Below the pieces are notes generated by a model. That model was not told where the DNA came from. It saw nothing but the letters and a program-made list of their open reading frames with translations, and ran no database searches. A DNA stretch of 32,000 nt from Kineococcus radiotolerans SRS30216 = ATCC BAA-149 (GTDB lineage: Bacteria; Actinomycetota; Actinomycetes; Actinomycetales; Kineococcaceae), in assembly GCF_000017305.1 (NCBI RefSeq), contig NC_009664.2, positions 4,530,001 to 4,562,000 on the forward strand, given 5' to 3'. Of the stretch, positions 6,262-20,846 are shown piece by piece. How positions within the stretch are numbered: the first letter of the stretch is position 1; the number at the start of each line of letters is the position of its first letter. The position numbers were made by a program, and so were the translations under genes.

Positions 6262-7641
6262 ATGAGCAGTGCCATCACCCGATCCGTCGACCGATCTGTC
6301 GACGTCGTCGTCGTGGGCGCCGGCCTCGCCGGTTTGGCCGCCGCCGACCAGCTCGTTCAGGCCGGCCACGACGTCGTCATCGTCGAGGGTCGTGACCGTA
6401 TCGGCGGCCGGATCCACACCACCGAGGTCGCCGGCGTCCCCGTCGACGCCGGCGCGACCTGGGTCGGCCCGCACCACACCGAAGTGCGCGACCTCGCCAG
6501 CCGGCTCGGCGTCCAACTCGTGCCCCAGTTCCACACGGGCAAAGGATTGCTGTCCTTCAACGGGCGCCGCCGCGTCGAAAGCGCCACAGCCATGGCGCCG
6601 TGGGTTGTGCTCGACCTGACGCGGATCCTGGGCGCCCTGCAGAAGCTGGCCGACAGCCTGTCCGTCGAGGCGCCCTGGAAGCACCCGGATGCCGAGAAGC
6701 TGGACTCGGTATCCCTGGGGGAGTGGCTGACGTCCAAGCTGGCGCTCAAGGGCACCCGAAAGTTCGTGAACATGATCAGCCTGGTGCATTGGGGGGCGCC
6801 GGTCGGCGACGTCTCCCTGTTCAACGTGCTGCGCTACATCAAGACCCTCGGCAGTCTCGACATCATGCTCAGCGTCGAGGGCGGTGACCAGCAGGACCGC
6901 ATCCTCGGCACAGCCCACGGACTGGTCAGCCGTTACGCCGAGGCCGTGGACGCGCCGATCCTGCTCAACTCCCCGGTGCAGCGCATCACCACCGCCGCAG
7001 AGCGCGTCACGGTCCACACCGCCGAGGGCATGATCGAGGCCCGCTACGTGATCATGACCGCTTCACCCATGCACCGCGCCCAGATCGAGTTCTCCCCGGC
7101 GCTGCCCGAGCAGCACTACGGCCTGTCCCGCAGTTGGCGGCTAGGTTCGCTGAGCAAGGCGTTCGTCGCCTACGACCGCCCCTTCTGGCGCAGCGAGGGC
7201 CTCTCGGCAGAGTCCGTCTCCGATGACGACACCGTCTTCCTCACCTTCGACGTCAGCCCTTCGCCCGAGGGTCCTGGGATTCTCATGGTCTTCTGCGACG
7301 GGCGCCGGTTCGACGGTTTCGAGGAGCCCGAACGGCGCCGTCGCGTCCTCGAGCAGGTCGTCCACCTGTACGGGGAGCGAGCCCGGCACCCCCTCGACTA
7401 CACCGACTTCTCCTGGGGCAATGACTCCTTCGCTGCCGGTGGACCCAACCCCGCGGTCGCGCCGAAGGCGTGGACCTCCTTCGGGCGGTACCTGCGCGAG
7501 CCGGTCGGACTGGTGCACTGGGCCGGCAGCGAGACTGCCGACGCCTTCAGCGGAACCATGAACGGCGCCCTCCTGTCGGGACAGCGCGCAGCACGCGAGG
7601 TCACCACCCGGCTGGCGACGGAGGCAGCCACCAGCCAGTGA
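6262..7641 (+). CDS. flavin-containing amine oxidase (monoamine/putrescine oxidase-like)
   Basis: The N-terminus VVVVGAGLAGLAAADQLVQAGHDVVIVEGRDRIGGRIHT is a GxGxxG FAD fold with the amine-oxidase R-x-GGR motif. The C-terminus reads VHWAGSETADAFSGTMNGALLSGQRAA. A GGAG lies 7 nt before the ATG. Confidence 0.85.
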   Translation: MSSAITRSVDRSVDVVVVGAGLAGLAAADQLVQAGHDVVIVEGRDRIGGRIHTTEVAGVPVDAGATWVGPHHTEVRDLASRLGVQLVPQFHTGKGLLSFNGRRRVESATAMAPWVVLDLTRILGALQKLADSLSVEAPWKHPDAEKLDSVSLGEWLTSKLALKGTRKFVNMISLVHWGAPVGDVSLFNVLRYIKTLGSLDIMLSVEGGDQQDRILGTAHGLVSRYAEAVDAPILLNSPVQRITTAAERVTVHTAEGMIEARYVIMTASPMHRAQIEFSPALPEQHYGLSRSWRLGSLSKAFVAYDRPFWRSEGLSAESVSDDDTVFLTFDVSPSPEGPGILMVFCDGRRFDGFEEPERRRRVLEQVVHLYGERARHPLDYTDFSWGNDSFAAGGPNPAVAPKAWTSFGRYLREPVGLVHWAGSETADAFSGTMNGALLSGQRAAREVTTRLATEAATSQ

Positions 7642-7875
7642 GGAGCAGAGCTGTCGTTCCCCCATGTGGTGACGGTCCTGCGGTGACGGTCTCCCCATGG
7701 TGGGGCCTGCCCTGACCCGCCCGGTCGACCCCGGGGATCCGATCTTTCCAGTCTCCTCCCCGCCCTTCTCCTCGCCGTTCTCCCCGCCGTCGCCCCTGTC
7801 CCCGTCGACGGTGAGCGCCGTTCCCGGCGGGGGACGACACCACATCAACCCGACCAAGCACCCAAGGAGCCTTTC

Positions 7876-8997
7876 GTGAAGATCCTCGTCGTGGGAGCCG
7901 GCCTGGCCGGATGCACCACCGCCCTGCACCTACGACGCAGCGGACACGACGTGACGGTGGTCGACGCCATCACCGAGCCCTACCGCGGCGGGTACATGCT
8001 GCAGCTGGACCAAAGCGCCCAACGGTTCATGCAAGACCTGGAACTGGGGGACTTGATGGAGAAGTTCTCCGTACCCGCTCCGGACATCGCCGTGCTGCGC
8101 ACAAGTGCGCGCGGACACAAAACCATGACCACCCTCGACCCCAAGGGGTACCGCCTGGTGCGTCGCGGTGACCTGATCGGCGCGATCGGTGAGCGTACTG
8201 CCGCTGAAGTCCCCTTGCGCCTGGGCCGGGAACTGGCCGGCATCGAGCAGCACCTCGATCACATCGTCGCACACTTCGCTAACGGAGACGCCCAGCGCTA
8301 CGACCTGCTGCTGGGTGCCGACGGGGTGCGTTCGACTGTGCGCCGTCTCACCCTGGGTCCGGACGAGGAGTTCGTCTACGACAACGGCTGGACCAACGTC
8401 TGGGTCAACGTCCCCCTTGAGGCACTGGGGCAGGACCGGTCCGAGATCTACTACGGCAAAGGCATGGGTGCCTACTTCTTTCCCTATCCCGACGGGGACC
8501 AGGCCTTGTTCCTCGCCGTCATGCCCACCGGCTCGCGCCCGGTGCACACCAGCGATCTGATCGCCGAGGTGCGCCACCGCATGAACGTCGGATCGCGGGG
8601 ATTCCTGATCGCCTCCGCTCTGGCCGACGCCGATCTCGACGCCGTGCGGTTGACCCGGTTCGCGCAGGTGCGGATGCCCCGCTGGCACGCTGGCCGCGTC
8701 GTACTGGTCGGGGATGCCGCCTACTGCGTCGACCCCCTGTCTGGGGTGGGGACTACCGCGAGCTTGTTGGGCGCTGCCCGTCTGAGCCAGGCGGTAAACA
8801 CGCACGGTGCAGATGTCAACGCTGCTGCGCGTGAGTACACCGCCCGTGTAGCGCCTCGCGTCAGGCTCTGGCAGCACACGACAGCAGGTCTCCTGGAGTC
8901 GGTCACTGGCTCGAGAGCGAGTCAGCGCCTCCAGGGGACCTCGCAGCTGGCCCACATTGTCACTGACCTGACGCGCGTCGGCTTGGGCCGACGCTGA
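7876..8997 (+). CDS. FAD-dependent monooxygenase (UbiH/PheA/TetX-type fold)
   Basis: MKILVVGAGLAGCTTALHLRRSGHDVTVVDA (GxGxxG), GADGVRSTVRR (DG motif) and VLVGDAAYCVDPLSGVGTTASLLGA (GD motif). An AAGGAG lies 7 nt upstream of the GTG. Confidence 0.8.
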   Translation: MKILVVGAGLAGCTTALHLRRSGHDVTVVDAITEPYRGGYMLQLDQSAQRFMQDLELGDLMEKFSVPAPDIAVLRTSARGHKTMTTLDPKGYRLVRRGDLIGAIGERTAAEVPLRLGRELAGIEQHLDHIVAHFANGDAQRYDLLLGADGVRSTVRRLTLGPDEEFVYDNGWTNVWVNVPLEALGQDRSEIYYGKGMGAYFFPYPDGDQALFLAVMPTGSRPVHTSDLIAEVRHRMNVGSRGFLIASALADADLDAVRLTRFAQVRMPRWHAGRVVLVGDAAYCVDPLSGVGTTASLLGAARLSQAVNTHGADVNAAAREYTARVAPRVRLWQHTTAGLLESVTGSRASQRLQGTSQLAHIVTDLTRVGLGRR

Positions 8998-9620
8998 CTG
9001 GGCAGCCCCTACGGGCAGAGTCCAGCTCATGGACGGTCTGTGGGGTCTGCGGCGCGGAGAGCGCGGCGCGGGACGGCTGATCCTCCAGCGGCTTTCAAGC
9101 TGACGAAACCTCGGGGCCGCGGGCCGCGGGCCGCTGCGGGGTGATGTCGGTGACTAGCCCAAGATCACGCTGATTTGTCAAGCAGCGCTCTGCGTGGGTG
9201 GCGGCGTGCGATGGCCCGTCGTGAGCCGCATTGGGTCGTGGTCGGCCGGCCGGCGCAGGACCGATGGCTGGCGCGGCGCGTCAGCTCGCCGCAGGTGCCG
9301 CAGGTGCCGCAGGTGCCCAGGCGACGGTGCGGGGCGACGGTGCTGCGGGGGTGCGGCGGGGGCGCTGCACGGGTCGGGAGAGGTGGTGGCCAGGCGGCTT
9401 GGGGCTCGCGGGTGTGGATGAGGGTGGCCGCCTGCAGGAGGGGGCGAGGTCGAGGTCGCAGGTGTCGCAGAGATGGTGCAGGTCGGTGGGCTGTTCGAGG
9501 AGGACTTGCTGCACGTCGTGGAGGTGGTTGAGCTGGGCGCAGCGCGCTTGAGGTGTCGTGCAGGAGCCGCCGCGTTCGGCGCTTGAGCCGGGGAGTCGGA
9601 GGTCGACCGACGCGCGTCGG

Positions 9621-9676
9621 TGATTTAGGAGTAAACTACACTCTGTACCGATAATCGTCGAGGAGAGGAGACTGCC
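9621..9676 (+). promoter_or_regulatory. AT-richer patch with -10-like hexamers and a strong RBS upstream of the alcohol dehydrogenase gene
   Basis: tgatttaggagtaaactacactctgtaccgataatcgtcgaggagaggagactgcc stands out against the ~70% GC surroundings. It contains TAAACT (9632-9637), GATAAT (9650-9655) and GAGGAGAGGAG just before GTG 9677. Confidence 0.3.
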
Positions 9677-10723
9677 GTGCGCGCAGTCCAGTACCGGACC
9701 ATCGGAGCAGCACCGGAGGTCGTGGACATCGACAAGCCGACACCGGGCCCCGGGCAGGTGCTCCTGGAGGTGACCGCCGCCGGCATCTGCCACTCCGACG
9801 ACTTCGTCATGAACCTGCCCGCGGACCAGTACACCTACGGCCTGCCCCTCACCTTGGGCCACGAGGGCGCCGGGCGTGTCGCCGAACTCGGCCCGGGCAC
9901 CACGGGCATCGACATCTGCACCGACGTCGTCGTCTACGGTCCGTGGGGCTGCGGCACATGCCACGCCTGTGCGCAGGGCAAGGAGAACTACTGCTCGCGC
10001 GCGGCGGAGCTGGGCATCAACCCGCCCGGACTGGGTGCCCCCGGGGCGCTGGCCGAGTTCATGATCGTCGACTCCCCGCGTCACCTGGTGCCGATCGGCG
10101 ACCTCGACCCGGTGGCGACCGTGCCGCTGACCGACGCCGGCCTCACCCCCTACCACGCGATCAAGCGCTCGCTGCCGAAGCTGCGCGCGGGCTCGACCGC
10201 GGTCGTCATCGGCACCGGTGGCCTGGGTCACCTCGCCATCCAGATCCTGCGCGCACTCTCCCCCGCCCGCGTCCTCGCCCTCGACGTCACCGAGGAGAAG
10301 CTCGCGCTGGCCACCGCCGTCGGCGCCCACGACGTCGTCCTCTCCGACGCCGACGCGGCCGCGAACGTGCGCAAGGCGCTGGGTGGGCGCGGAGCCGACC
10401 TCGTCCTGGACTTCGTCGGCGCCCAGCCCACGATCGACACCGCGATGGCGGTGGCCGGGGTGGAGTCCGACGTCACCATCGTCGGGATCTCCAGCAAGCC
10501 CGCCGCCGCGCAGGTCGGCTTCTTCCGCCAGGCCTACGAGGCGTCGGTGACCGTCCCGTACTGGGGTTCGCGCGGTGAGCTCATCGAGCTGATCGACCTC
10601 GCCCACCAGGGCGTGTTCGACGTGCACACCGAGACGTTCGCGATGGCTGAGGCCCCCACGGCGTACGAGCGTCTCGCCGCGGGGACCCTGGCTGGGCGCG
10701 CGGTCGTCGTCCCCTCGCTCTGA
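9677..10723 (+). CDS. zinc-type NAD(P)-dependent alcohol dehydrogenase (MDR family)
   Basis: 348 aa with GICHSD, GHEGAGRVAELG, structural-zinc cysteines (GCGTCHACAQGKENYC) and the VIGTGGLGHLAIQ Rossmann motif. Confidence 0.9.
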   Translation: MRAVQYRTIGAAPEVVDIDKPTPGPGQVLLEVTAAGICHSDDFVMNLPADQYTYGLPLTLGHEGAGRVAELGPGTTGIDICTDVVVYGPWGCGTCHACAQGKENYCSRAAELGINPPGLGAPGALAEFMIVDSPRHLVPIGDLDPVATVPLTDAGLTPYHAIKRSLPKLRAGSTAVVIGTGGLGHLAIQILRALSPARVLALDVTEEKLALATAVGAHDVVLSDADAAANVRKALGGRGADLVLDFVGAQPTIDTAMAVAGVESDVTIVGISSKPAAAQVGFFRQAYEASVTVPYWGSRGELIELIDLAHQGVFDVHTETFAMAEAPTAYERLAAGTLAGRAVVVPSL

Positions 10724-10761
10724 CCCGTTTCTGACCCTCGAACTTCTTGGCCCCCTGGCAC

Positions 10762-10814
10762 CCTTCGTGGCCGTGGTCCCATAGGTACGGTTCGTGAGAC
10801 CACGGCCAGGAAGG
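10762..10814 (+). terminator. 17-bp inverted repeat (1 mismatch) with a 19-nt loop, 39 nt after the adh stop
   Basis: ccttcgtggccgtggtc (10762-10778) pairs with gaccacggccaggaagg (10798-10814). It could be a terminator. It also sits at the left edge of the repeat-punctuated locus. Confidence 0.4.
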
Positions 10815-10957
10815 GCCCACCGGACGTCCTGTGGGCGTGCTGATGAGGACAGCGGGGTGACGCACTTGAAGTCCGGACATCGACAGTATGCGAGTGATCA
10901 TCGTGCTCAGCTTTCCTTCGACATGAGCGTGACCACGCCGCCGCTGGCCATCAGCGG

Positions 10958-10990
10958 CCGCCCATATCGCGGGATGACCGGAAGGTCATG
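10958..10990 (+). repeat. Array element copy 1 (variant): ccgcccatatCGCGGGATGACCGgaaggtcat
   Basis: Shares ccgccc-N-tatcgcgggatgaccg with copy 7. In this copy the core is extended into a perfect palindrome, ATGACC-ggaa-GGTCAT (10974-10989), flanked by cgcgg/ccgcg. Confidence 0.85.
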
Positions 10991-11299
10991 GTCACCGCGG
11001 TCGAAGTCTGCCAGCATCAGGAGATGAGCACCGAGCAGGCCCAGAAGGCATCCCCCGACAAGCAGGGGCGCTTCAGCTTCGTGTCCTGCATCGGCGCCGT
11101 GTTCATGTTCCTCGCGGTCGTGTTGCTCGTGAAGGCAGGCACCACACGTGACGTGGTGGGGAGCTGCATCGTCCTCGTGGTGGGCGCGGACCTGATGCTG
11201 CCTCGGGGGGAGCAGAGTGGTCGTGTGGTGCGAGTAGCGAGGACGGTGCTCCTCGTGGTGGGGCTGACCCTGGTGGCCGTAGAGATCGCTGTGCTGTGA
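10988..11299 (+). CDS. small hypothetical membrane protein (about 3 TM)
   Basis: 103 aa (or 91 aa from ATG 11024) with hydrophobic segments VSCIGAVFMFLAVVLLV, VVGSCIVLVVGADLML and VLLVVGLTLVAVEIAVL. Codon third positions are mostly G/C. Its 3' 160 nt recur, frameshifted, at 15209-15368. Confidence 0.55.
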   Translation: MVTAVEVCQHQEMSTEQAQKASPDKQGRFSFVSCIGAVFMFLAVVLLVKAGTTRDVVGSCIVLVVGADLMLPRGEQSGRVVRVARTVLLVVGLTLVAVEIAVL

Positions 11300-11376
11300 G
11301 CCGGTGCTGTGGCCCGGTGCAGCGAGGAGCGACGTCACGCAGGAGCACGCACAACGCGGGATGACCGTGAAGTTGT
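11139..11376 (+). repeat. Copy A of a ~240-bp direct repeat (3' part of the small membrane gene plus array element copy 2)
   Basis: Matches 15209-15458. The first ~160 nt differ by one G-run indel and one substitution. The next ~50 nt are more diverged, with a 15-nt insertion in copy B. The two copies are then identical through gacgtcacgcaggagcacgcacaacgcgggatgaccgtgaagt. Confidence 0.9.
11347..11376 (+). repeat. Array element copy 2: acgcacaaCGCGGGATGACCGTGAagttgt
   Basis: Direct reading. acaac/gttgt form a 5-bp stem around the core. It lies 48 nt after the stop of the 10988..11299 ORF. Confidence 0.9.
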
Positions 11377-11442
11377 CAGGGGTTTGAGCGGACCAAGCGT
11401 CGCGTTCCGCGGCCTGTCGAGACTTGTCGTCTGTGAGGACGG

Positions 11443-11985
11443 CTACTCGTTGAAGCCATCGGCCTCGAGGACCGGTTCGCGCCAGGTCCAGGCCAGGGCA
11501 GCGGCGGGCAGCATGGTGGCGGTGAGGAACGAGGCGACGAGCAACGTCGTCCAGCCCCCGGTCTCGACGATCTGCACGCCCGCCTCGTCTGCCAGGAGGT
11601 TGTCGAGGACCGCAAGGACTGCCAGCGCGCCCAGCAGCAGCAGGGTGAGGCGGAAGCCGCGTCGGTAAGCATGGTCGCGGTCGCTGATCTCGCGTTCGTC
11701 GAGCAGGTTCTCCGGTGCGTCGTCCAGCATCCGCGTCGCGCGGCGCAGCACGGCCAAGGCGTAGCTGGCCGGGGCGATGGCAAATGCGACCAGCCCCGGG
11801 TCGAAGTCGCCGACGGTAGCGGCCAGGACACCAAAGGCGAAGGTGGCCGCGGGGAGCAGGGCGAGGGCGCGGCGGGCGGTGCGAGTGGCCAGCCACGCCG
11901 GCAGTGGCTGCTGGCGTTGTTCCTGGAGTCGGGCGTGGGTAGCGGCGCGTCGGTGCGCACGGTATTCGGTCCCGATGGGGTTCAT
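11443..11985 (-). CDS. hypothetical membrane protein, partner of the XRE regulator
   Basis: 180 aa with about 4 TM segments (ALALLPAATFAFGVLAATV, LVAFAIAPASYALAVL, LTLLLLGALAVLAVL, TTLLVASFLTATMLPAAALAW). Its ATG overlaps the stop of the upstream HTH gene (ATGA at 11982-11985). Confidence 0.7.
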   Translation of the reverse strand: MNPIGTEYRAHRRAATHARLQEQRQQPLPAWLATRTARRALALLPAATFAFGVLAATVGDFDPGLVAFAIAPASYALAVLRRATRMLDDAPENLLDEREISDRDHAYRRGFRLTLLLLGALAVLAVLDNLLADEAGVQIVETGGWTTLLVASFLTATMLPAAALAWTWREPVLEADGFNE

Positions 11986-12332
11986 GTGCTGGCTCCTGCC
12001 TGGGCGGGCGTGGTCGTCGGTGCCTCAGCGGGCGCCGTGGGGGATGTGGGGGCGGGGTAGAGCTGCGCTGACATGGGCGGGAAGGGGGTGAGGGAGAAGA
12101 GCGCCTCCACGGGTAGGCCGAAGTGGCCGGCCAGGCGCAGGGCGAGTTCGACGGAGGGGCCGTAATCGCCGCGTTCGAGGAAGCCGATGGTCTGAACGTT
12201 GACGCCGACCGCTTCGGCCAGCTGGCGGCGGGTGATGCCGCGTTCGGCGCGCAGCACCGCGAGGCGGTTGTGCAGGTGCTTCGCGCCTGCCGACTCCTTC
12301 GCCTTGTTCACCACCCCCCCATGTTGCGTCAT
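11982..12332 (-). CDS. XRE/Cro-C1 family helix-turn-helix transcriptional regulator (small y4mF/YozG-like type)
   Basis: NRLAVLRAERGITRRQLAEAVGVNVQTIGFLERGDYGPSVELALRLAGHFGLPVEALF is a textbook HTH_XRE domain. I place the start at ATG 12332 (MTQHGG...). The track ORF extends to 12407 through a low-complexity S/T stretch. Confidence 0.8.
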   Translation of the reverse strand: MTQHGGVVNKAKESAGAKHLHNRLAVLRAERGITRRQLAEAVGVNVQTIGFLERGDYGPSVELALRLAGHFGLPVEALFSLTPFPPMSAQLYPAPTSPTAPAEAPTTTPAQAGAST

Positions 12333-12455
12333 CGCAACACAGAGCGCAAGAGAGGCAATGGAGGTGGCGGACGAGGTGGTGCTGGATGACCCTGCGGACA
12401 TCGACATGAGCGCGACGGCGCGGCCATCGCCATGTGCGTGTGTCGGGCGCCGGGG

Positions 12456-13307
12456 TCAGTCCGCCCTGGTCCCGGTCTGCCGGTAGCGACCGGCGATCTG
12501 GCCGCCTCGAGAACTGGCGCGCAGCGTGCCTTCGGCGGCGGTCAACGCCTCCACCGCAGCCGGGTCCTCGAGCCCGGGCACGCACATCGTCTCGCCGTCG
12601 CGAAGCGCCGACAGCGAGGCCTCGACGACGTCTTCGGGTGGCATGCCGCCGTCGTCGTGGACCTTCTCCTCGCCAGGGACGGGCAGGTCGCCTCTGGTGA
12701 GGTGGAATTCGGTGGCGGTCAGTCCTGGGCACACGACCTGCACGCTCACCGGGGACCCGGCCAGTTCGGCGGCGAGGGTACGGGTGAACGTCACGACGTA
12801 GCCCTTGGTGCCGCCGTACACGGCGCGGTGGGGGAGTGGGTCCGGCGGCAGGCTCCCGGCGAACGCCAGCAGCGAGGCCACGCTGATGACGGCGCCGCGC
12901 CCGCGCGTCAGCATTCCGGGCACGGCGGCCCGGGTCAGCACCGTCAGGGCGGTGACGTTGACGGCCAGCACCTGGGTCAGCAGGTCGGCTTCGGTCTGCG
13001 CGAACGGGCCGTAGCCGTTGATGCCCGCGTTGTTGACCAGGAGGTCCACATCGACGGCACGTGCGGCGACCCGGGTCAGGTCGCTGGCCTGGGATAGGTC
13101 GGCGGTGAGGGTCTGCACCGTGACGCCGTGCTCGTCGCGCAGCGCGGCGGCAAGCTGCTCCAGGCGGTCGCCTCGGCGAGCGACGAGGACGAGACCCCAA
13201 CCCCGTTCGGCGAGCTGGCGGGCGTACACGGCGCCGATTCCGGAGGAGGCGCCGGTGATCAGGGCGGTCCCGGTGGTCTTGGTGGTGTCGAGTGCCATGC
13301 CGTCCAT
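12456..13307 (-). CDS. SDR family oxidoreductase (classical short-chain dehydrogenase)
   Basis: TALITGASSGIGAVYARQLAERG (TGxxxGxG), LLVNNAGI (NNAG) and a YGGTK active-site motif (YxxxK). The start is taken at ATG 13307, with GGAG 4 nt upstream. The track ORF starts at TTG 13385. Confidence 0.85.
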   Translation of the reverse strand: MDGMALDTTKTTGTALITGASSGIGAVYARQLAERGWGLVLVARRGDRLEQLAAALRDEHGVTVQTLTADLSQASDLTRVAARAVDVDLLVNNAGINGYGPFAQTEADLLTQVLAVNVTALTVLTRAAVPGMLTRGRGAVISVASLLAFAGSLPPDPLPHRAVYGGTKGYVVTFTRTLAAELAGSPVSVQVVCPGLTATEFHLTRGDLPVPGEEKVHDDGGMPPEDVVEASLSALRDGETMCVPGLEDPAAVEALTAAEGTLRASSRGGQIAGRYRQTGTRAD

Positions 13308-13592
13308 GGTGCTCCGGCCGCTGGGCGCGGCACGCCAGGACCTGGCCGCGCGTTGGGTGGCGATCGACTGCCCGGTGCGAGGCAAGGATGGTCACCTCCT
13401 GTCGCATCGACCACCGCCCGTAAGCCGAGACCCTCACCATCGAACGCGGCCTCGCTCGATGACCCGCAGCGCCTTGCCGGCGCGCCGTTCCAAGACGAGC
13501 TCGAGCTGCGACCGGTCACGGCGAAACGCGGCGGCGTGGCGAGTTCTCGTTTGACGGCCAAGCTGTCGTCCCGAGGATCCCGCACTGATCTC

Positions 13593-13610
13593 GGCACGAC
13601 CGTGACGTCG
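13593..13610 (+). repeat. Degenerate partial copy of the array element (ggcacGACCGTGAcgtcg)
   Basis: Lies 17 nt upstream of copy 3 and shares gaccgtgacgtcg with it, giving a local tandem duplication of the right half of the core. Confidence 0.6.
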
Positions 13611-13626
13611 CGGGGCGTCAGCCACA

Positions 13627-13655
13627 GCGCACAACGCGGGATGACCGTGACGTCG
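13627..13655 (+). repeat. Array element copy 3: gcgcacaaCGCGGGATGACCGTGAcgtcg
   Basis: Direct reading. cacaacg/cgtcgtg form a 7-bp stem (1 mismatch) around the core. Confidence 0.9.
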
Positions 13656-13692
13656 TGGGCAATGCCTTCTCCTGCGATGGCAGCAGCGGCCG

Positions 13693-14892
13693 TTACGGAA
13701 CCCCGGGCCAGCTCAGCAGCCGCTCCACAGCCTGACGTGGACGGGTCGGGATCGACACGCCCACGTTCTGCCCGTCGGCTCGGATCCAGTAGATGCCGGT
13801 CACCTCATCTTCAAGATGGGTGACCTGAGCCAGAACATCCCCGATGCGCACGACGGTCCAGCCGCCGGTGGGGTTGCGCAGATCGGTGCCCGCCACGATC
13901 GGCGGGGCGTCCGGCTCGGGTGGGGCTGTGGAGATGGTGGTGACGCCGGCTTGGGTGAGGCGGTGGAACGGCACAGTGTGCAGGTCGACCCCGGCGGGGA
14001 CGAGGAGCAGGTAGCGCCGTTGTGGATCGACGTGGCGGCGCAGCCAGACGCGTTCCTCACCCGAGGCGGGTTGTGGGCAGGGGCCGGTGAACGAAGCCTC
14101 GTCAGGGTCGATGTCCACGCCATCGCTCAGGACGCCGGGGGCGCCCCACATACCCAGGGTCTCGTAGCGGAACTCACGGGCGATGGGTCGCAAGTGCTCC
14201 AGAACCGCGGCGACGTGCTCGCTCAGGGGCAGGCCGGCTAGGGGGGCGGGGCGGGCTGCGGCGGCGCGGGCCACCGCCTCCTCTTCGATGCGGGCCGGCC
14301 ACAACGGGAGCTCGGTGTCCTGTGGCGGATCCGGCGCGGTGGGCCAGTCCGTGAGCACGCCGACGTCGCGGTACGTCCATCGCGCGGAAGGCCGCCCGTC
14401 GGGCAGGCGGGGGTCGAGCCACTCCAGGTGGGCTTGGCTGGAGCGGCTGATGGCGGCGAGGACGTGGGCGGTGGTGGGTCGGTCCATGTCCCCGAGGGTG
14501 GCGCCGAGGTCGACGGGGACGGCGGAGGCCAGGGCGGCGGCGATGCGCAGGACGCCTCGGTGGTGGCGGGCGTGGGGGAGGTCGGCGGGCAGCGGGCCTG
14601 GTGGGGCGTTGGGGTCGATGGCGGCGATGGCTTCGGCCCAGCGCAGGGTGGCGCGGGGGGTGCCGTCGGGGTGAGTGTCGAGGTCGAGGAAGCCAGCAGC
14701 GTCGAGGGTGGTGAGCCAGTCCCCGGTGCGGTGCAGCAGTTCGACGGCGACGGCGGGTGGGCCCAGCTCGATCCAGGCCATGGTGAGGACGTCGGTGAGT
14801 TGGCTGGAGGTCAGCGTCGAACCCGTCACGGGGGTGAGTCTCGGAGTGGACGGGTGGATGAGGAGGGGCTGGGCCCATCCAGTCATCGTCAT
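13693..14892 (-). CDS. hypothetical protein (399 aa, no domain recognised)
   Basis: Long ORF with ordinary amino-acid composition (W/L/T/D/P mix). The overlapping + strand ORFs are G/D/E/R-rich antisense-type. It occupies an entire module between element copies 3 and 4. No TM segment or signal peptide is seen. Confidence 0.65.
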   Translation of the reverse strand: MTMTGWAQPLLIHPSTPRLTPVTGSTLTSSQLTDVLTMAWIELGPPAVAVELLHRTGDWLTTLDAAGFLDLDTHPDGTPRATLRWAEAIAAIDPNAPPGPLPADLPHARHHRGVLRIAAALASAVPVDLGATLGDMDRPTTAHVLAAISRSSQAHLEWLDPRLPDGRPSARWTYRDVGVLTDWPTAPDPPQDTELPLWPARIEEEAVARAAAARPAPLAGLPLSEHVAAVLEHLRPIAREFRYETLGMWGAPGVLSDGVDIDPDEASFTGPCPQPASGEERVWLRRHVDPQRRYLLLVPAGVDLHTVPFHRLTQAGVTTISTAPPEPDAPPIVAGTDLRNPTGGWTVVRIGDVLAQVTHLEDEVTGIYWIRADGQNVGVSIPTRPRQAVERLLSWPGVP

Positions 14893-14920
14893 GGTGGGGA
14901 CGCCCCTGACAGCTCAGGAC

Positions 14921-14950
14921 CGCACACAACGCGGGATGACCGTGAAGTCG
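14921..14950 (+). repeat. Array element copy 4: cgcacacaaCGCGGGATGACCGTGAagtcg
   Basis: Direct reading. ccgcacacaacg/cgttgcgg can pair (with a bulge) around the core. It lies 29 nt from the start codon of the 13693..14892 gene. Confidence 0.9.
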
Positions 14951-15028
14951 TCGTTGCGGTGGGGAGGGCCGTCGCCGCATCTTGCAGCGCCGAGCCGGGG
15001 CGCAAGGGAAACGGTGAGTTGAGCTGCC

Positions 15029-15208
15029 TCAGCTGGTGGTGACGGCCACGCCCCACTGCGAGGGGCCGTCGTTGGGGTCAGTGACTTTGAAGGTGGCTTC
15101 GCCGGTGGTCGGGATGAGCTCACCGACGCGGTGGCCCTGCCCGTCGCAGTTGACGGTGACCGTGGTGCCGGCCAGGTCCAGACCGAGGCTCCCGTCGCCG
15201 GTGCAGGC
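15029..15208 (-). pseudogene. 3' remnant of a small Cys-containing, beta-rich (probably secreted) protein
   Basis: ...ACTGDGSLGLDLAGTTVTVNCDGQGHRVGELIPTTGEATFKVTDPNDGPSQWGVAVTTS* has strong G/C third-position bias. Upstream, this frame runs into the antisense of the duplicated membrane-gene segment (H/Q/P-rich, poor GC3). No plausible N-terminus or signal peptide remains. Confidence 0.4.
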
Positions 15209-15458
15209 GGCACCACACGTGACGTGGTGGGGAGCTGCATCGTCCTCGTGGTGGGCGCGGACCTGATGCTGCCTCGGGGGAGCAGAGTGGTCGTGTGGTG
15301 CAAGTAGCGAGGACGGTGCTCCTCGTGGTGGGGCTGACCCTGGTGGCCGTAGAGATCGCTGTGCTGTGACCTGATGCTGTGACCCGGTGGTGGGGGCCGG
15401 TGCAGCAAGGAGCGACGTCACGCAGGAGCACGCACAACGCGGGATGACCGTGAAGTCG
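15209..15458 (+). repeat. Copy B of the ~240-bp direct repeat (frameshifted 3' fragment of the small membrane gene plus array element copy 5)
   Basis: See copy A. The G6 run at 11205-11210 is G5 here (15276-15280), which shifts the frame to a premature TAG at 15305-15307. The 5' third of the gene is missing, replaced by the unrelated remnant at 15029-15208. Confidence 0.9.
15430..15458 (+). repeat. Array element copy 5: acgcacaaCGCGGGATGACCGTGAagtcg
   Basis: Direct reading. Identical to copy 2 over gacgtcacgcaggagcacgcacaacgcgggatgaccgtgaagt. Confidence 0.9.
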
Positions 15459-15524
15459 GCGCTCTACGGCTGCAGCCGCGACAAAAGGACGTGGTAGCCG
15501 CAGCTTGTCGGGCACTGTGGAGTC

Positions 15525-16031
15525 GTGCTCGCCAGCTTCTCGGTCGCCGTCGCCATCCGCATGGCTCAGGCCGCCGCTGATCTACCGCGTCCACGGGTAT
15601 CGCTGGTGCCGGCAGCGTCGTATCGCCTCGAGCGGGGCCACGACGAGCGCGAGGTGCTCGACGAGCCGTCCTTCGCGGTGAGTCTGGACCTCGCGGCGCC
15701 ACTGACCTCGCCGCATGAGGCGATCGGCTACCAAGTCTTCGACACCACCTCGCAGTGGGTGTCCCTGGGCGGCACCCTCCTGCTGCTGGACAACGCGATG
15801 GGCTCTGAGCGTTGTGAGCCGCGACCGGCGCGGTTGCGGAGCGAGCAGGACGGGGGTCTGCGCATGCCCTTCGACGGGTGGTGGGTCTTTCCCGACTTCG
15901 CTGACGAGCTGGATGGGCAGGTCGACATCACGGTGCTGACCACCGTGAAGTGGGTCCAAGAGGGCCGCGCCGTGCAGGAGGCTGAGGTGTTGATGGACTT
16001 CACCTTGGCCCTGTTGAACTCACGCCCTTGA
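15525..16031 (+). CDS. hypothetical protein (168 aa, no domain recognised)
   Basis: The ORF has high GC3 and ordinary composition (…GYQVFDTTSQWVSLGGTLLLLDNAMG…FDGWWVFPDFADELDGQVDITVLTTVKWVQEGRAVQEAEVLMDF…). It fills the module between copies 5 and 6, and its stop lies 20 nt before copy 6. The start (GTG 15525) is uncertain. Confidence 0.6.
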   Translation: MLASFSVAVAIRMAQAAADLPRPRVSLVPAASYRLERGHDEREVLDEPSFAVSLDLAAPLTSPHEAIGYQVFDTTSQWVSLGGTLLLLDNAMGSERCEPRPARLRSEQDGGLRMPFDGWWVFPDFADELDGQVDITVLTTVKWVQEGRAVQEAEVLMDFTLALLNSRP

Positions 16032-16050
16032 GTCGGTGGTGGGCGCGGCA

Positions 16051-16082
16051 CCGCCCGCACTGCGGAATGACCGTGAATCCGC
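16051..16082 (+). repeat. Array element copy 6 (diverged): ccgcccgcacTGCGGAATGACCGTGAatccgc
   Basis: Direct reading. gcgga/tccgc form a stem that closes on atgaccgtgaa. Confidence 0.85.
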
Positions 16083-16121
16083 TCGACGAGGTTCCACCCC
16101 TCCTGCACGCGGCATGATGCG

Positions 16122-16574
16122 GTGATGGCGACGACGTCAACCGAGCAAGTACGGCGTGATCCCCGCTACCGCGGGGGACGGCTGTTATCCGCGCTGGCGG
16201 TGCTGGGTCTGTCGGTGGCGGCCTGGCAGGGGTGGGTGAGCTGGTGGGCCGACGATGCCCAGGCGCCGGCCGCGGCGGGGTGGTTCCACCTCGGTGCGGG
16301 TCTAACGCTGGCGGCGGCTGTGGTGCTCGGCAGTGTCCGTCTGGGGGTCCTGCTGCCTGCTGTGGTGGCGACGGTGGTGGTGTGCGCCACCGCGGCGTGG
16401 ACGCTGAAGGACACCGGAGGCCCGTTCTGGATGGTGGGGGTGCTCACCGTGGGTGTCATCGCGGTGATGGTCACTGGGCTGGTCGGGGCGCTGGTGGTGC
16501 TGTTGCGGGCTCGGGCTGATCTGCGGCGCGAGGTCGATGCACCACCCTCCAAAGCACAGCGTGAGCGGGGCTGA
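16122..16574 (+). CDS. hypothetical membrane protein (about 4 TM)
   Basis: 150 aa with LLSALAVLGLSVAAWQGWVSWW, WFHLGAGLTLAAAVVLGSV, LLPAVVATVVVCATAAW and FWMVGVLTVGVIAVMVTGLVGALVVLL. It fills the module between copies 6 and 7. Confidence 0.7.
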   Translation: MMATTSTEQVRRDPRYRGGRLLSALAVLGLSVAAWQGWVSWWADDAQAPAAAGWFHLGAGLTLAAAVVLGSVRLGVLLPAVVATVVVCATAAWTLKDTGGPFWMVGVLTVGVIAVMVTGLVGALVVLLRARADLRREVDAPPSKAQRERG

Positions 16575-16653
16575 CAGCGTTACCGGGAGGTTCTCCGCAG
16601 GAAGCGCCGTCGCGGACTTCGGCAAGACCACAACGTGGTCAGGCCAGTTGAGG

Positions 16654-16694
16654 CCGCCCGTATCGCGGGATGACCGTGACGTTCAAGCCGCGAT
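16654..16694 (+). repeat. Array element copy 7: ccgcccgtatCGCGGGATGACCGTGAcgttcaagccgcgat
   Basis: Direct reading. atcgcgg (16662-16668) and ccgcgat (16688-16694) are a perfect 7-bp inverted repeat enclosing the core. Confidence 0.9.
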
Positions 16695-16758
16695 GGGGTC
16701 AGGCGGAGACGGCAGCTAAACAGTCCGGTCGGGCACTGCGTCATCGGACTGCCGGTGT

Positions 16759-17127
16759 TCAGTCGCGCGTCTCGTCGCGGACTTCACGCGGTGGGACGGG
16801 TTCTGCGGCGAGGTCCGCGCTGGCGTCCGCAGCGAGATCTTCGGCGCGGGAGAGGCAGGTGGGGCAGATGCCTCGCCAGGCCAGGCGTGGTTGGCGCATC
16901 CGGCGACCGCACAGTGTCCACGGGGTGGAGCTGGCCGTGGAGCGATCGCGGATGAGGTGGGCGGCGTGGCCACCCCGCCCCCGCCACACCCACCGGCCGC
17001 TGAGGTCGAAAGCGAGGTCAGCGTCAGCCTTGCCGGCGCTGCTACCACCCGCGTGACCATCCTCGACCCGCCTCACCGGAGGAGGCCCTTCGGGGTGCCG
17101 GCCGTAACACTTCTGGTCGTGGGTCAT
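16759..17127 (-). CDS. small hypothetical protein, DUF3039-like C-terminal Cys motif
   Basis: 122 aa with good GC3. ...AAHLIRDRSTASSTPWTLCGRRMRQPRLAWRGICPTCLSRAEDL resembles, from memory, the actinobacterial DUF3039 pattern (AHYV..........ALCGKVW.P.RDP...PVCP.CKEIY). The functional call is weak. Confidence 0.5.
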   Translation of the reverse strand: MTHDQKCYGRHPEGPPPVRRVEDGHAGGSSAGKADADLAFDLSGRWVWRGRGGHAAHLIRDRSTASSTPWTLCGRRMRQPRLAWRGICPTCLSRAEDLAADASADLAAEPVPPREVRDETRD

Positions 17128-17390
17128 GCCTCACCTACCTCGTGCCTGCCTCGAGGACTCCGTCGTGGTGACCCAAGATAACGAGACAGGGTGCCAGAAG
17201 CTTCCCAGAGCTCCACTGCGACTCCACGGCGACTTTGTCGCGGCAGACGTGGAGGTCAGTTGACCACGCTGTGCCGTCACGTACCCCGGTGGCCTGGGTG
17301 GACCCGGGTGTTCGGGGGTGACCCAGGTGGCTCGACCACGGGTGGCTCGACGCGGCCTGGGTAGTCGTGGGGACGGGGCCGGGGTCCGGG

Positions 17391-17419
17391 GCTGACCCCA
17401 GACCCCGGCTGGGGTCAGC
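17391..17419 (-). terminator. perfect 11-bp inverted repeat overlapping the MCP stop codon
   Basis: gctgaccccag (17391-17401) and ctggggtcagc (17409-17419) with a 7-nt loop. There is no U-tract, which is common in high-GC actinobacteria. Confidence 0.45.
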
Positions 17420-20289: not shown

Positions 20290-20516
20290 ACTTGCCCGGT
20301 GTCAGTGCACCTGGCACGAGCTGACGGCGCCGCCGGTGCTAATCGCAACGTATCGGTGCTTGCGCCTGGGCTGGGACTGGGGGCCTGGGAGGAGGCGCCG
20401 CGCTGGTGCGGTGCCGCGTCGGGTCTGTCGTGGGCTCTTCTCCCGGTGGGGCTGGTGGGGCACACTGTGTCGAGGCCCGGCTTTGATGGAGACCTGCAAG
20501 TGACGCCTCCGAGAGG

Positions 20517-20846
20517 ATGATGGTCTCCATGGCTGCGCCCAGGAAGTACCCCGACGAGCTGCGTGAGCGAGCTATCCGTATGGCGCTGGACGCGCGCCGC
20601 GACCCCACCACCCGGGTCAACGCCTTCAAACGCATCGGCGGCCAGCTCGGCATCAACGCCGAGACCCTGCGCAACTGGGTCCTGCAGGCCGAGGTCAACG
20701 CCGGCGACCGGCCCGGTACTACGACCGACGCCGCGGCTCGCCTGGCCGAGCTCGAGCGGGAGAACCGTGAGCTTCGCCGAGCCAACGAAATCTTGCGCCG
20801 CGCATCGGCTTTCTTCGCGGCGGAGCTCGACCGCCCCTCTCGCTGA
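20517..20846 (+). CDS. IS3-family transposase OrfA (HTH plus leucine zipper)
   Basis: MAAPRKYPDELRERAIRMAL...IGGQLGINAETLRNWV...LAELERENRELRRANEILRRASAFFAAELD is the canonical IS3 OrfA. Confidence 0.85.
   Translation: MMVSMAAPRKYPDELRERAIRMALDARRDPTTRVNAFKRIGGQLGINAETLRNWVLQAEVNAGDRPGTTTDAAARLAELERENRELRRANEILRRASAFFAAELDRPSR

What the first reader, a model, noticed from the sequence alone, without database searches (positions are those of the whole stretch)
10958..16694. Seven co-oriented copies of a ~25-nt element divide 5.7 kb into six gene modules: a cassette-array-like locus with no recombinase in view
**The repeats.** The core CGCGGGATGACCGTGA, with conserved 5' flank (c)gcacaa or ccgccc-N-tat, occurs at 10958, 11347, 13627, 14921, 15430, 16051 and 16654. 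All copies are on the same strand. A degenerate half-copy sits at 13593. I found no other full copy in the remaining 26 kb.

**The modules between copies:**
1. a 3-TM miniprotein
2. an XRE HTH gene plus a membrane protein plus an SDR, all reversed
3. a 399-aa orphan, reversed
4. two gene remnants
5. a 168-aa orphan
6. a 4-TM protein

**Why it looks like a cassette array.** For the forward modules each ORF stops 20-80 nt before the next copy. The next ORF then starts 40-70 nt after it. This is the geometry of gene cassettes followed by a recombination site. The content (small, membrane or unknown proteins, fragments, one duplicated module end) is what integron or orphan-module arrays usually carry. 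The locus is bracketed by ordinary genes (adh on the left, a DUF3039-like gene and an MCP on the right).

**Why that would be notable.** To my knowledge, classical integrons are essentially unreported in Actinobacteria, and the element does not look like attC. If it is a recombination site, it would belong to an undescribed system. The mundane alternative is a REP/MIRU-like intergenic repeat family.
Basis: partly seen in the sequence, partly recalled or inferred. Interest (0 to 1): 0.85.

Follow-up and report, generated by a model that had tools for sequence, protein, structure and literature searches.

The report
Integron-like gene-cassette array in Kineococcus
This 5.7-kb stretch of the Kineococcus radiotolerans chromosome is a small array of swappable gene cassettes separated by a 31-bp site, apparently part of an undescribed integron-like gene-capture system (arrays up to about 60 kb) in Actinobacteria, a phylum in which complete integrons have not been found.

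Summary
Seven co-oriented copies of CGCGGGATGACCGTG lie at 10968-16678, with none elsewhere in the window.

The cassette reading is supported and the REP/MIRU reading is refuted.
- The motif is specific to Kineococcus. In a complete genome it forms two co-oriented arrays, one with at least 83 sites over about 59 kb, rather than being scattered.
- The same cassettes recur in other species with different neighbours. Homology starts and stops inside the core.
- A second K. radiotolerans strain keeps both flanks but holds entirely different cassettes.

It is not an integron.
- The site is about 31 bp, asymmetric and unstructured.
- No IntI is present.
- Cassette genes point both ways.

The window holds no recombinase. 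In five Kineococcus species a simple Xer/Brujita-like tyrosine recombinase ("YR-2") sits inside the arrays, always opposite to the sites. Its relatives in Cellulomonas, Motilibacter, Jatrophihabitans and soil metagenomes are flanked by the same motif family (86 sites on the opposite strand, 14 on the same strand).

[quoted passage not shown] The array nature is firm. The enzyme and mechanism are inferred. I found no prior description.

The parts
10919..10942 (+). Variant ('left-part') site CGACATGAGCGTGACC..., 50 nt left of the first canonical site; leftmost recognisable element of the array
   Evidence: (family D12). Such motifs are co-oriented with the cores in the arrays: 50 on the top strand against 9 on the bottom strand.
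10958..10988 (+). Site 1 (core 10968-10982; its 3' end is degenerate, CCGGAA)
   Evidence: Conserved in the second K. radiotolerans strain.
10988..11299 (+). Cassette 1 gene, a 103-aa small protein with no Pfam or PADLOC hit
   Evidence: About 85% homologues lie in arrays of other species (L087, L164, L081). Another copy at 82% identity lies elsewhere in the strain-2 array.
11345..11375 (+). Site 2 (core 11355-11369)
11443..12407 (-). Cassette 2a: 180-aa ORF (11443-11985) plus XRE-type HTH gene (11982-12407), both reversed
   Evidence: HTH_3, 2.4e-12. Conserved at 97.8% in strain 2. Homologue in L176 starts at the core.
12402..12413 (+). Variant site CGACATGAGCGC. Homology between the two K. 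radiotolerans strains ends exactly here.
   Evidence: Alignment A5.
12456..13385 (-). Cassette 2b gene: short-chain dehydrogenase, absent from strain 2
   Evidence: (adh_short, 2e-42).
13590..13612 (+). Degenerate half-copy / variant site CGGCACGACCGTGACGTCG
   Evidence: (E=0.019).
13625..13655 (+). Site 3 (core 13635-13649)
13693..14892 (-). Cassette 3 gene: 399-aa orphan (Krad_2465), reversed
   Evidence: No family hit.
14920..14950 (+). Site 4 (core 14930-14944)
14945..15437 (.). Cassette 4: gene remnants. 15209-15456 duplicates the 3' end of cassette 1 plus its site.
   Evidence: families D2-D4, 94-100% identity.
15428..15458 (+). Site 5 (core 15438-15452)
15525..16031 (+). Cassette 5 gene: 168-aa orphan. 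The whole cassette recurs in Kineococcus sp. DK019 between other neighbours.
   Evidence: Alignment A1: 88% identity from core to core with unrelated flanks.
16051..16081 (+). Site 6 (core 16061-16075, 2 mismatches)
16122..16574 (+). Cassette 6 gene: 150-aa ORF
16654..16684 (+). Site 7 (core 16664-16678), last recognisable site
16679..17410 (.). Distal variable segment. It holds one ORF, either 16670-17056 (+) or 16759-17127 (-). It is absent from strain 2, and the conserved flank resumes at the stop of the MCP gene.
   Evidence: (A6).

Best explanation
**What it is.** The locus is a small chromosomal array of mobile gene cassettes in Kineococcus radiotolerans SRS30216. Each cassette is bounded by a co-oriented, asymmetric site of about 31 bp: GCRCNCRNAN-CGCGGGATGACCGTG-ANGTCG.

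**How it works.** Cassettes are inserted, lost and reshuffled by conservative site-specific recombination whose crossover lies inside the 15-nt core. The left flank of every site therefore travels with the upstream cassette and the right flank with the downstream one.

**Wider system.** The locus belongs to an integron-like but non-integron system that builds arrays of up to about 60 kb in Kineococcus. Variant cores, (C/A)GCGG(G/C)ATGA(C/G)CG, occur in other Actinobacteria.

**Likely enzyme.** The most likely catalyst is a simple, arm-less Xer/Brujita-like tyrosine recombinase (YR-2, about 310 aa). It is carried inside the arrays, usually on the strand opposite to the sites and often next to a toxin-antitoxin pair. 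On the window array it would act in trans, because the window holds no recombinase.

**Shown.** Array structure, clustering, co-orientation, cassette-level exchange with breakpoints in the core, within-species turnover, and the association of YR-2 with the sites.

**Inferred.** That YR-2 is the catalyst, that circular cassette intermediates exist, and that the substrate is double-stranded.
For: **1. The repeats are real and confined to the locus**.

**2. The motif is genus-specific and clustered.**
- The 19-mer hits 108 stretches of 596 Gb, and 92 of them are in Kineococcus.
- In the complete DHX-1 chromosome every hit lies at 2.145-2.203 Mb (at least 83 cores) or at 4.703-4.711 Mb (17 cores). 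All are on one strand.
- Within 79 segments from 16 assemblies plus the window, cores are almost always co-oriented.

**3. The inter-site units look like cassettes.** There are 301 units with a median length of 745 bp, and 60% hold a single gene. The 711 predicted proteins are extremely diverse; the largest family has 6 members. They include GNAT, methyltransferase, APH, nucleotidyltransferase and XRE-HTH proteins.

**4. Cassettes move between contexts.** There are 29 full-length homologous cassette pairs (73-100% identity) between genomes or arrays. In none of the 25 informative cases is a neighbour the same. Identity jumps from background to about 0.9 exactly across the core.

**5. Cassettes turn over within a species.** Strain GCA_014191015.1 keeps the left flank up to window 12410 and the right flank from 17411. 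Between them it carries different cassettes spread over at least 20 kb on two contigs.

**6. YR-2 is associated with the sites.**
- It lies inside arrays in 5 of 5 Kineococcus species examined and is always opposite to the cores.
- Its family has more than 6500 members at 70-94% identity across actinobacterial orders.
- Homologues in Cellulomonas, Motilibacter and a metagenome contig are flanked by 8-31 motif copies, against 1.3-2.0 expected, nearly all on the opposite strand.
- Across 80 metagenome loci there are 86 opposite-strand sites and 14 same-strand sites, with a peak 41-130 nt upstream of the gene start.

**7. YR-2 resembles integrases that work on simple sites.** It is about 45% identical to integrases of temperate Arthrobacter and Gordonia phages and matches the Brujita gp33 structure sequence. 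The simple tyrosine recombinase of phage Brujita drives both integration and excision (PMC8138268).
Against: - No recombinase lies in the window. No K. radiotolerans protein appears among the named members of six YR-2 clusters, so this particular array may be an orphan.
- The site has no obvious dyad symmetry of the kind seen in classical tyrosine-recombinase core sites (my inspection).
- In Jatrophihabitans the sites around YR-2 are in mixed orientation. In addition, 29 of 80 metagenome loci, mostly short contigs, show no site.
- The YR-2 association could mean only that YR-2 is a self-mobile element that targets these sites, as IS1111-attC elements do in integrons. It need not be the enzyme that moves the other cassettes.
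- The arrays carry a strand-specific GC skew independent of gene direction. This could hint at a single-strand step.
- No excised circle or recombination event has been observed. All evidence is comparative.
Confidence: 0.72

Rival explanations
1. REP/MIRU-like intergenic repeat family. The element would be a structural or regulatory repeat dispersed in intergenic DNA, with no role in moving genes. The local cluster would be incidental.
For: The element is short, GC-rich and intergenic. It also forms tandem mini-arrays of 27-29 nt units.
Against: - It is clustered in two regions of a complete chromosome and is not dispersed.
- It is strictly co-oriented.
- It shows no hairpin excess.
- Cassettes are exchanged with breakpoints in the core.
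- The locus is hypervariable within a species.
Confidence: 0.03
2. A true integron or CALIN: attC sites recombined by an IntI integrase as folded single strands.
For: The geometry is that of an array of small, mostly single-gene cassettes. The content is typical of chromosomal integrons, including GNATs and toxin-antitoxins.
Against: - The conserved site is only about 31 nt, has no R''/L''-L'/R' palindrome and folds no better than control windows.
- The associated recombinases score far below the IntI models: TIGR02249 gives 46-54 bits against a cut-off of 265, and only the C-terminus aligns.
- Cassette genes point both ways, 184 to 148.
- Surveys found no complete integrons in Actinobacteria (PMC4889954, PMC9024848).
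Confidence: 0.02
3. Xer-dependent modules (IMEX or pdif-like). Cassettes would be moved by the chromosome-dimer-resolution machinery, for example the Xer-like recombinase that lies 1.9-4.6 kb from the end of the large arrays in DHX-1 and DK019.
For: - A 341-aa Xer-like recombinase lies just beyond the 59-kb array of DHX-1 and beyond an array in DK019.
- Homology between genomes stops about 100 bp upstream of that gene, at a dif-like palindrome. It therefore borders a variable region.
Against: - The cassette site bears no resemblance to the dif-like site CCGCATAA-CGACGA-ATATGCGG, which is single-copy.
- The same recombinase is present with no array within 10 kb in G2 and NBC_00420.
- Sites are co-oriented, not alternating as in pdif modules.
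Confidence: 0.07
4. Exchange by homologous or micro-homology recombination. The repeat would have some other primary role, such as a protein-binding or transcription signal. Cassettes would be swapped passively by double crossovers between neighbouring repeats after DNA uptake.
For: - The window holds no recombinase, and K. radiotolerans is not seen to encode YR-2.
- Tandem mini-repeats suggest slippage or unequal crossing-over.
- The proximal cassettes are conserved between strains while the rest is replaced as a block.
Against: - The perfectly conserved stretch is only 15 nt and the whole site about 31 nt. From general knowledge of RecA-dependent recombination, that is short for efficient homologous recombination.
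- This model does not explain strict co-orientation over 59 kb.
- It does not explain conservation of the motif across orders together with one recombinase family in a fixed relative orientation.
- It does not explain single-cassette mobility into unrelated contexts.
Confidence: 0.1
5. Single-strand (HUH/Y1 or rolling-circle type) mobilisation. A nick at one site and termination at the next co-oriented site would release single-stranded cassette circles.
For: - The site is asymmetric and strictly co-oriented.
- The strand carrying the core is G-rich and T-rich in 50 of 52 arrays regardless of gene direction (median GC skew +0.074 inside arrays, +0.025 outside). One strand being preferentially exposed would produce this.
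Against: - No HUH or Y1 gene was seen in or next to any array examined, though the search for them was not exhaustive.
- No hairpin lies next to the site.
- A consistent orientation of arrays relative to replication would also explain the skew.
Confidence: 0.05

Closest known systems
Sedentary chromosomal integrons and CALIN (integrase-less attC clusters)
   Same: - Long co-oriented arrays of small, mostly single-gene cassettes of highly diverse and mostly unknown function.
- Cassette-level shuffling and strain-to-strain turnover between conserved flanks.
- Very homogeneous sites within a genus.
- Toxin-antitoxin cassettes.
- Integrase-less satellite arrays, like the one in this window.
   Different: - There is no IntI. 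The candidate enzyme is a simple Xer/Brujita-like tyrosine recombinase.
- The site is about 31 bp, asymmetric and unstructured, not a 55-140 nt folded attC.
- The recombinase gene sits inside the array rather than on a fixed platform with attI and Pc.
- Cassette genes run in both directions.
- Tandem 'empty' site repeats occur.
Arm-less simple phage integrases (Brujita type) and related actinophage integrases
   Same: YR-2 has the same two-domain architecture with no arm-binding domain. It is about 45% identical to Arthrobacter and Gordonia phage integrases and matches Brujita gp33 (PDB 5vfz). The simple tyrosine recombinase of phage Brujita drives both integration and excision (PMC8138268). 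From my memory of Lunt & Hatfull 2016, it does so on short simple sites without a directionality factor.
   Different: YR-2 is not in a prophage. It is flanked on both sides by the same site and embedded among dozens of unrelated passenger cassettes.
Xer-dependent modules (pdif modules of Acinetobacter plasmids; IMEX elements at dif)
   Same: Gene modules are bounded by short recombinase sites and moved by Xer-family tyrosine recombinases. Tandem accumulation at one site is possible.
   Different: The sites here are not dif-like (no 11-6-11 structure) and are co-oriented rather than alternating. They form arrays of tens of units on the chromosome.
Tandem accretion of integrative elements and cis-mobilisable elements (CIMEs/IMEs)
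   Same: Repeated integration at one attachment site gives att-element-att-element arrays. Integrase-less elements are mobilised in trans.
   Different: The units here are about 0.2-3 kb single-gene cassettes, not multi-kb islands. There are 80 or more units per array, and no tRNA or gene-end attB is involved.
REP/BIME and MIRU intergenic repeats
   Same: They are short, GC-rich, intergenic and sometimes tandem.
   Different: This element is not palindromic and not dispersed. It is strictly co-oriented and marks the breakpoints of gene-module exchange.

Membership tests
Integron (IntI + attC) | The recombination site is an attC: 55-140 nt, with imperfect R''-L''/L'-R' inverted repeats that fold as a hairpin | tested here: not met
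   Information content is confined to positions -9..+20 (448 sites). The folding energy of the sites equals that of control windows on both strands.
Integron (IntI + attC) | An IntI-type integrase (tyrosine recombinase with the IntI-specific insertion) that passes the TIGR02249/PRK15417 models | tested here: not met
   YR-2 scores 53.5 bits and the dif-adjacent Xer-like protein 46.2 bits, against a cut-off of 265. Only about 70 C-terminal residues align. IntI4 (2a3v) matches only the C-terminus.
Integron (IntI + attC) | Fixed platform: intI divergent from attI and Pc, with cassettes co-oriented with Pc | tested here: not met
   The recombinase is flanked by sites on both sides inside the arrays. 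Gene orientation is 184 to 148.
Integron-like cassette array (functional sense) | Discrete cassettes occur in different contexts, with boundaries at the repeated site | tested here: met
   29 homologous cassette pairs, with different neighbours in all 25 informative cases. The identity step lies inside the core. Turnover occurs within a species.
Integron-like cassette array (functional sense) | A dedicated site-specific recombinase acts on the sites (excision circles, integration) | not testable with these tools
   Only association is shown: YR-2 lies inside arrays, with 86 sites on the opposite strand against 14 on the same strand.
Xer/dif modules (pdif, IMEX) | 28-bp dif-like site with two 11-bp arms and a 6-bp spacer; alternating orientation in pdif modules | tested here: not met
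   The site consensus lacks dyad symmetry. Sites are co-oriented. The genuine dif-like site next to the Xer-like gene is different and single-copy.
REP/BIME (RAYT-associated) | Imperfect palindromes dispersed genome-wide in both orientations | tested here: not met
   No folding excess. Exact copies in the complete DHX-1 genome are confined to two one-strand arrays. Degenerate copies outside the fetched blocks could not be scanned.
Simple (arm-less) tyrosine recombinases, Xer/Brujita-like (for YR-2) | SAM-like core-binding domain plus catalytic domain, about 300 aa, no arm-binding domain | tested here: met
   Pfam Phage_integrase 4e-26 plus Phage_int_SAM_1/4. Best PDB match is XerD at 6e-19; Brujita gp33 matches at 4e-8. 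Below the equivalog cut-offs for XerC and XerD.
CRISPR array | Regular repeat-spacer-repeat units with spacers of about 30-40 nt | tested here: not met
   Spacing runs from 27 nt to 5.8 kb and the intervals hold genes.

The most novel reading that the evidence does not exclude
**A second, independent solution to gene capture.** The proposal is a phylum-wide actinobacterial cassette system with these features:
- A horizontally mobile, cassette-borne, arm-less tyrosine recombinase (YR-2 family; more than 6500 members at 70-94% identity).
- The enzyme recombines short, asymmetric, unstructured sites of about 31 bp.
- It stockpiles dozens of passenger genes in chromosomal arrays of up to about 60 kb.

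This would fill the niche that integrons occupy in Proteobacteria. It could also help explain why integrons never established in Actinobacteria.
Probability: 0.55. Interest if true: 0.92.

Novelty: new variant of a known kind. Interest (0 to 1): 0.88.

Why it matters
**An open puzzle.** Integron surveys found no complete integron in Actinobacteria. They called the reason unknown and possibly an unknown hindering mechanism (PMC4889954, PMC9024848).

**What is new here.** Large, fast-turning cassette arrays do exist in this phylum, built on a different site and probably a different recombinase.

**If confirmed, this would:**
- reveal a hidden reservoir and exchange route for accessory genes in soil Actinobacteria. 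The cassettes include acetyl-, phospho- and nucleotidyl-transferases, families that include antibiotic-modifying enzymes.
- provide a natural comparison for how integron-like systems evolve.
- offer a compact recombinase plus a 31-bp site as a possible genome-engineering tool for high-GC Gram-positive bacteria.

**It is directly testable.** The site, the candidate enzyme and culturable strains (K. radiotolerans, DHX-1) are all in hand.

Tried and rejected
- **Viral contigs.** The 16-mer gave 70 hits, all single. Most came from one phage lineage with unrelated flanks, so they are chance or coding matches.
- **Rfam and tRNA scans of the window** found nothing.
- **PADLOC on the window orphans** gave only generic HTH hits.
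- **Plasmid collection.** Only generic SDR homology appeared. There were no arrays, and no close YR-2 (about 40% identity at best).
- **First recombinase lead.** I followed the 341-aa Xer-like gene beyond the DHX-1 array.
  - It proved to be a conserved gene with its own single-copy dif-like palindrome.
  - It is present without nearby arrays in G2 and NBC_00420.
  - I demoted it to a side observation.
- **'Left-part' motif as a start codon.** I tested whether the motif exists to provide the start codon of reversed cassette genes. Only 7 of 30 motifs open a long reverse ORF, so this is not a general rule.
- **attC-like folding** is not supported.
- **Start codon of YR-2 inside a core-like motif.** The metagenome hits were simply the upstream canonical sites, so this is not supported.
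- **Within-strain polymorphism.** Logan read assemblies from the SRR58872xx runs are identical to the window and break at the repeats, so they are uninformative.
- **Limits reached.**
  - I could not establish whether K. radiotolerans encodes YR-2.

Full report
**1. The observation**

The 16-nt core CGCGGGATGACCGTGA occurs on the + strand at 11355, 13635, 14930, 15438 and 16664 (exact) and at 10968 and 16061 (two mismatches each). A degenerate copy lies at 13590. About one match is expected by chance.

The repeat finder returns the same eight positions as one 39-nt family. It also shows that 15209-15456 is a 94-100% duplicate of 11138-11373, which is the end of module 1 plus its site. A profile HMM built later from 448 related sites, and a generalized 12-nt motif, both find only these copies in the 32-kb window. 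The extra hit at 20755 lies inside an IS3 orfA and is unrelated.

- Zn-ADH on the left
- a 103-aa ORF
- reversed 180-aa, XRE-HTH and SDR genes
- a reversed 399-aa orphan
- remnants
- a 168-aa orphan
- a 150-aa ORF
- an MCP on the right

No Rfam family, tRNA or defence-system model matches. The window is Kineococcus radiotolerans SRS30216, genes Krad_2463 to Krad_2476.

**2. Clustered arrays, not a dispersed repeat**

A scan of one genome per prokaryotic species with CGCGGGATGACCGTGAMGT gave 108 stretches. Of these, 92 are in Kineococcus, from 16 assemblies. The other 16 are isolated single matches in unrelated taxa, which by my estimate is what chance allows.

In the complete chromosome of Kineococcus sp. 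DHX-1 the hits fall only in 2,144-2,208 kb and 4,696-4,712 kb. Allowing two mismatches gives these counts, every one on the + strand:
- at least 83 cores between 2,144,955 and 2,203,429 (one 8-kb block could not be fetched)
- 17 cores between 4,702,699 and 4,711,049

Across 79 segments the cores of a segment are co-oriented almost without exception.

**3. The units between sites behave as cassettes**

I defined 301 core-to-core units:
- Length is 179-5775 bp, with a median of 745 bp.
- 60% hold one gene.
- Gene direction is mixed: 184 genes run in the direction of the core and 148 against it.

The 711 predicted proteins are extremely diverse; the largest family has six members. A Pfam survey of 150 representatives shows GNAT acetyltransferases, methyltransferases, XRE regulators, APH and nucleotidyltransferases, hydrolases and sigma factors. 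Most have no hit.

Twenty-nine pairs of full-length homologous cassettes (73-100% identity) occur in different genomes or arrays. Wherever neighbours could be compared (25 pairs) they differ. The window's own cassette 5 is an example: 15438-16076 is 88% identical to L137:930-1575 in strain DK019, and similarity starts in the left core and stops in the right core. Averaged over all pairs, identity steps from background (about 0.3) to about 0.9 across the left core and falls back across the right core. So the left flank of a site belongs to the upstream cassette and the right flank to the downstream one, and the exchange point lies inside the 15-nt core.

**4. Turnover within the species**

A second K. 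radiotolerans assembly (GCA_014191015.1) is 97.8% identical from window 5911 to 12410. That stretch covers the adh gene, sites 1 and 2, cassette 1, and the 180-aa and HTH genes. The assembly is 92.7% identical again from 17411, the stop of the MCP gene, onward.

Between these points it carries different cassettes (two GNATs and many small orphans). They are bounded by the same co-oriented sites and are spread over at least 20 kb on two contigs.

The left breakpoint falls exactly in a variant motif, CGACATGAGCG, at 12402-12413. Such variant motifs are co-oriented with the cores in the arrays (50 on the top strand, 9 on the bottom) and often lie 30-45 nt upstream of a canonical core. The window has three, at 10919, 12402 and 13592.

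**5. The site**

Anchored on the core, information content is confined to about -9..+20: GCRCNCRNAN-CGCGGGATGACCGTG-ANGTCG. The site is asymmetric. It folds no better than control windows from the same loci on either strand. Runs of 27-29-nt 'empty' units (core plus flanks) occur in many arrays. The site is therefore not an attC, a dif-like site or a REP hairpin.

**6. The search for the enzyme**

The window has no recombinase apart from an IS3 remnant.

The first lead was a 341-aa Xer-like gene 1.9 kb beyond the DHX-1 array and 4.6 kb beyond an array in DK019. It turned out to be conserved across Kineococcus and at 55-60% identity across other actinobacterial genera. It has no array within 10 kb in G2 or NBC_00420. 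It has its own single-copy dif-like palindrome, CCGCATAA-CGACGA-ATATGCGG, at the point where inter-genome homology stops. I treat it as a probable XerS/XerH-style dif unit and a side observation.

Next I built an HMM of tyrosine recombinases and searched all six-frame ORFs of the array loci. This revealed a second family, YR-2. An example is L099:3342-4304 on the minus strand.
- **Position.** Members are 88-97% identical in five species. Each lies between two cores inside an array, on the strand opposite to the cores (5 of 5). Only the coding sequence is conserved between species.
- **Type.** YR-2 is a simple two-domain tyrosine recombinase. It falls well below the XerC/XerD and IntI cut-offs. 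It is closest to XerD and Brujita gp33 among solved structures and about 45% identical to Arthrobacter and Gordonia phage integrases.
- **Spread.** It has more than 6500 relatives at 70-94% identity in Cellulomonas, Motilibacter, Jatrophihabitans, Actinomadura, Spirillospora and soil metagenomes, and is multi-copy in some Kineococcus genomes.

**7. The association holds outside Kineococcus**

Counts of the generalized motif GCGGSATGASCG, allowing one mismatch, around YR-2 homologues:

| Locus | Matches | Expected | On the strand opposite to YR-2 |
|---|---|---|---|
| Cellulomonas sp. ATA003 | 11 | 2.0 | 10 |
| Motilibacter peucedani | 31 | 1.4 | 29 |
| 41-kb metagenome contig | 8 | 1.25 | 8 |
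| Jatrophihabitans | 10 | 1.6 | 5 (mixed) |

The Motilibacter count includes seventeen tandem 34-nt units.

In 80 metagenome loci, 86 sites lie on the opposite strand and 14 on the same strand. Sites peak 41-130 nt upstream of the recombinase start, and some lie 10-25 nt after its stop. The recombinase unit often also holds a toxin-antitoxin pair.

**8. Model**

- **Shown:** this is a family of co-oriented cassette arrays with exchange at a 31-bp site and rapid turnover.
- **Inferred:** YR-2 catalyses conservative recombination between sites, both circle-by-array integration and array-site-by-array-site excision. It is itself carried as a self-mobile, TA-stabilised cassette and mobilises passenger cassettes in trans. 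Integrase-less arrays such as the one in this window are satellites, analogous to CALINs.

Open points:
- The site lacks the dyad symmetry usual for tyrosine-recombinase cores.
- YR-2 could merely be an element that targets the site.
- No K. radiotolerans YR-2 was seen.
- Arrays show a strand-specific composition bias. GC skew is positive on the core strand in 50 of 52 arrays, independent of gene direction. This could reflect replication orientation or a single-strand step.

**9. Comparison with what is known, and novelty**

Functionally this works like a sedentary chromosomal integron with CALIN satellites. It fails every defining feature of integron membership (attC, IntI, and a platform with Pc). 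It also fails the features of pdif/IMEX modules and of REP/BIME repeats.

Integron surveys report no complete integrons in Actinobacteria (PMC4889954, PMC9024848). Eight full-text searches found no description of these arrays. Subscription-only literature was not searchable.

I rate it a new variant of a known kind, namely site-specific gene-cassette arrays, and of high interest.

Noticed in passing
L122:5268-6400 (DHX-1 chromosome, about 2,205,268-2,206,400); also L184, L137, L182, L186: A conserved 341-aa Xer-like recombinase has a single-copy dif-like palindrome, CCGCATAA-CGACGA-ATATGCGG, about 100 bp upstream of its start. Homology between five Kineococcus genomes stops exactly at that site, and everything to its left is variable. 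It lies at 46% of the DHX-1 chromosome. The arrangement resembles XerS/difSL or XerH/difH. Homologues at 55-60% identity occur in many actinobacterial genera.
   Followed up: partly
All arrays; window 10900-16700: The strand that carries the core as CGCGGGATGACCGTG is G-rich and T-rich. GC skew in the window array is +0.135, against -0.005 and +0.036 in its flanks. Skew is positive in 50 of 52 arrays, and the bias is independent of cassette gene direction, including at third codon positions.
   Followed up: partly
L106:5915-5985, L122:1439-1590, L108:6592-6690; L272:14993-15548: Tandem runs of 'empty' site units occur without cargo. The units are 27-29 nt in Kineococcus, and there are seventeen 34-nt units in Motilibacter.
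   Followed up: no
window 20487-21748: IS3-family remnant: orfA (HTH_Tnp_1) followed by a truncated rve-domain ORF, 3.8 kb to the right of the array. IS3, IS481 and IS110 copies also sit in or next to arrays of other genomes (L106:7095-8000; L190).
   Followed up: no
L154:2825-5728 (Kineococcus sp. NPDC059986): Two adjacent, mutually distant tyrosine recombinase genes (385 and 393 aa) lie about 1 kb to the left of an array. They weakly match the XerA and GmtY/GmtZ models, which suggests part of a multi-recombinase (RIT/GMT-like) element.
   Followed up: no
L165:1711-2405, L190:11055-11578, L272:11028-11542: Toxin-antitoxin pairs (VapBC, Phd/ParE, RHH plus a partner) lie immediately next to the YR-2 recombinase, within the same site-to-site unit.
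   Followed up: no
window 10761-10815 and 17378-17415: Strong GC-rich hairpins lie just after the adh gene and after the MCP gene and look like terminators. They mark the ends of the conserved flanks on either side of the variable region.
   Followed up: no
L184:2170-3724 (NPDC059986): An aminoglycoside-resistance-family gene (Aminoglyc_resit) and a GNAT gene lie in the variable DNA just left of the dif-like site. APH and nucleotidyltransferase genes are also among the array cassettes.
   Followed up: no
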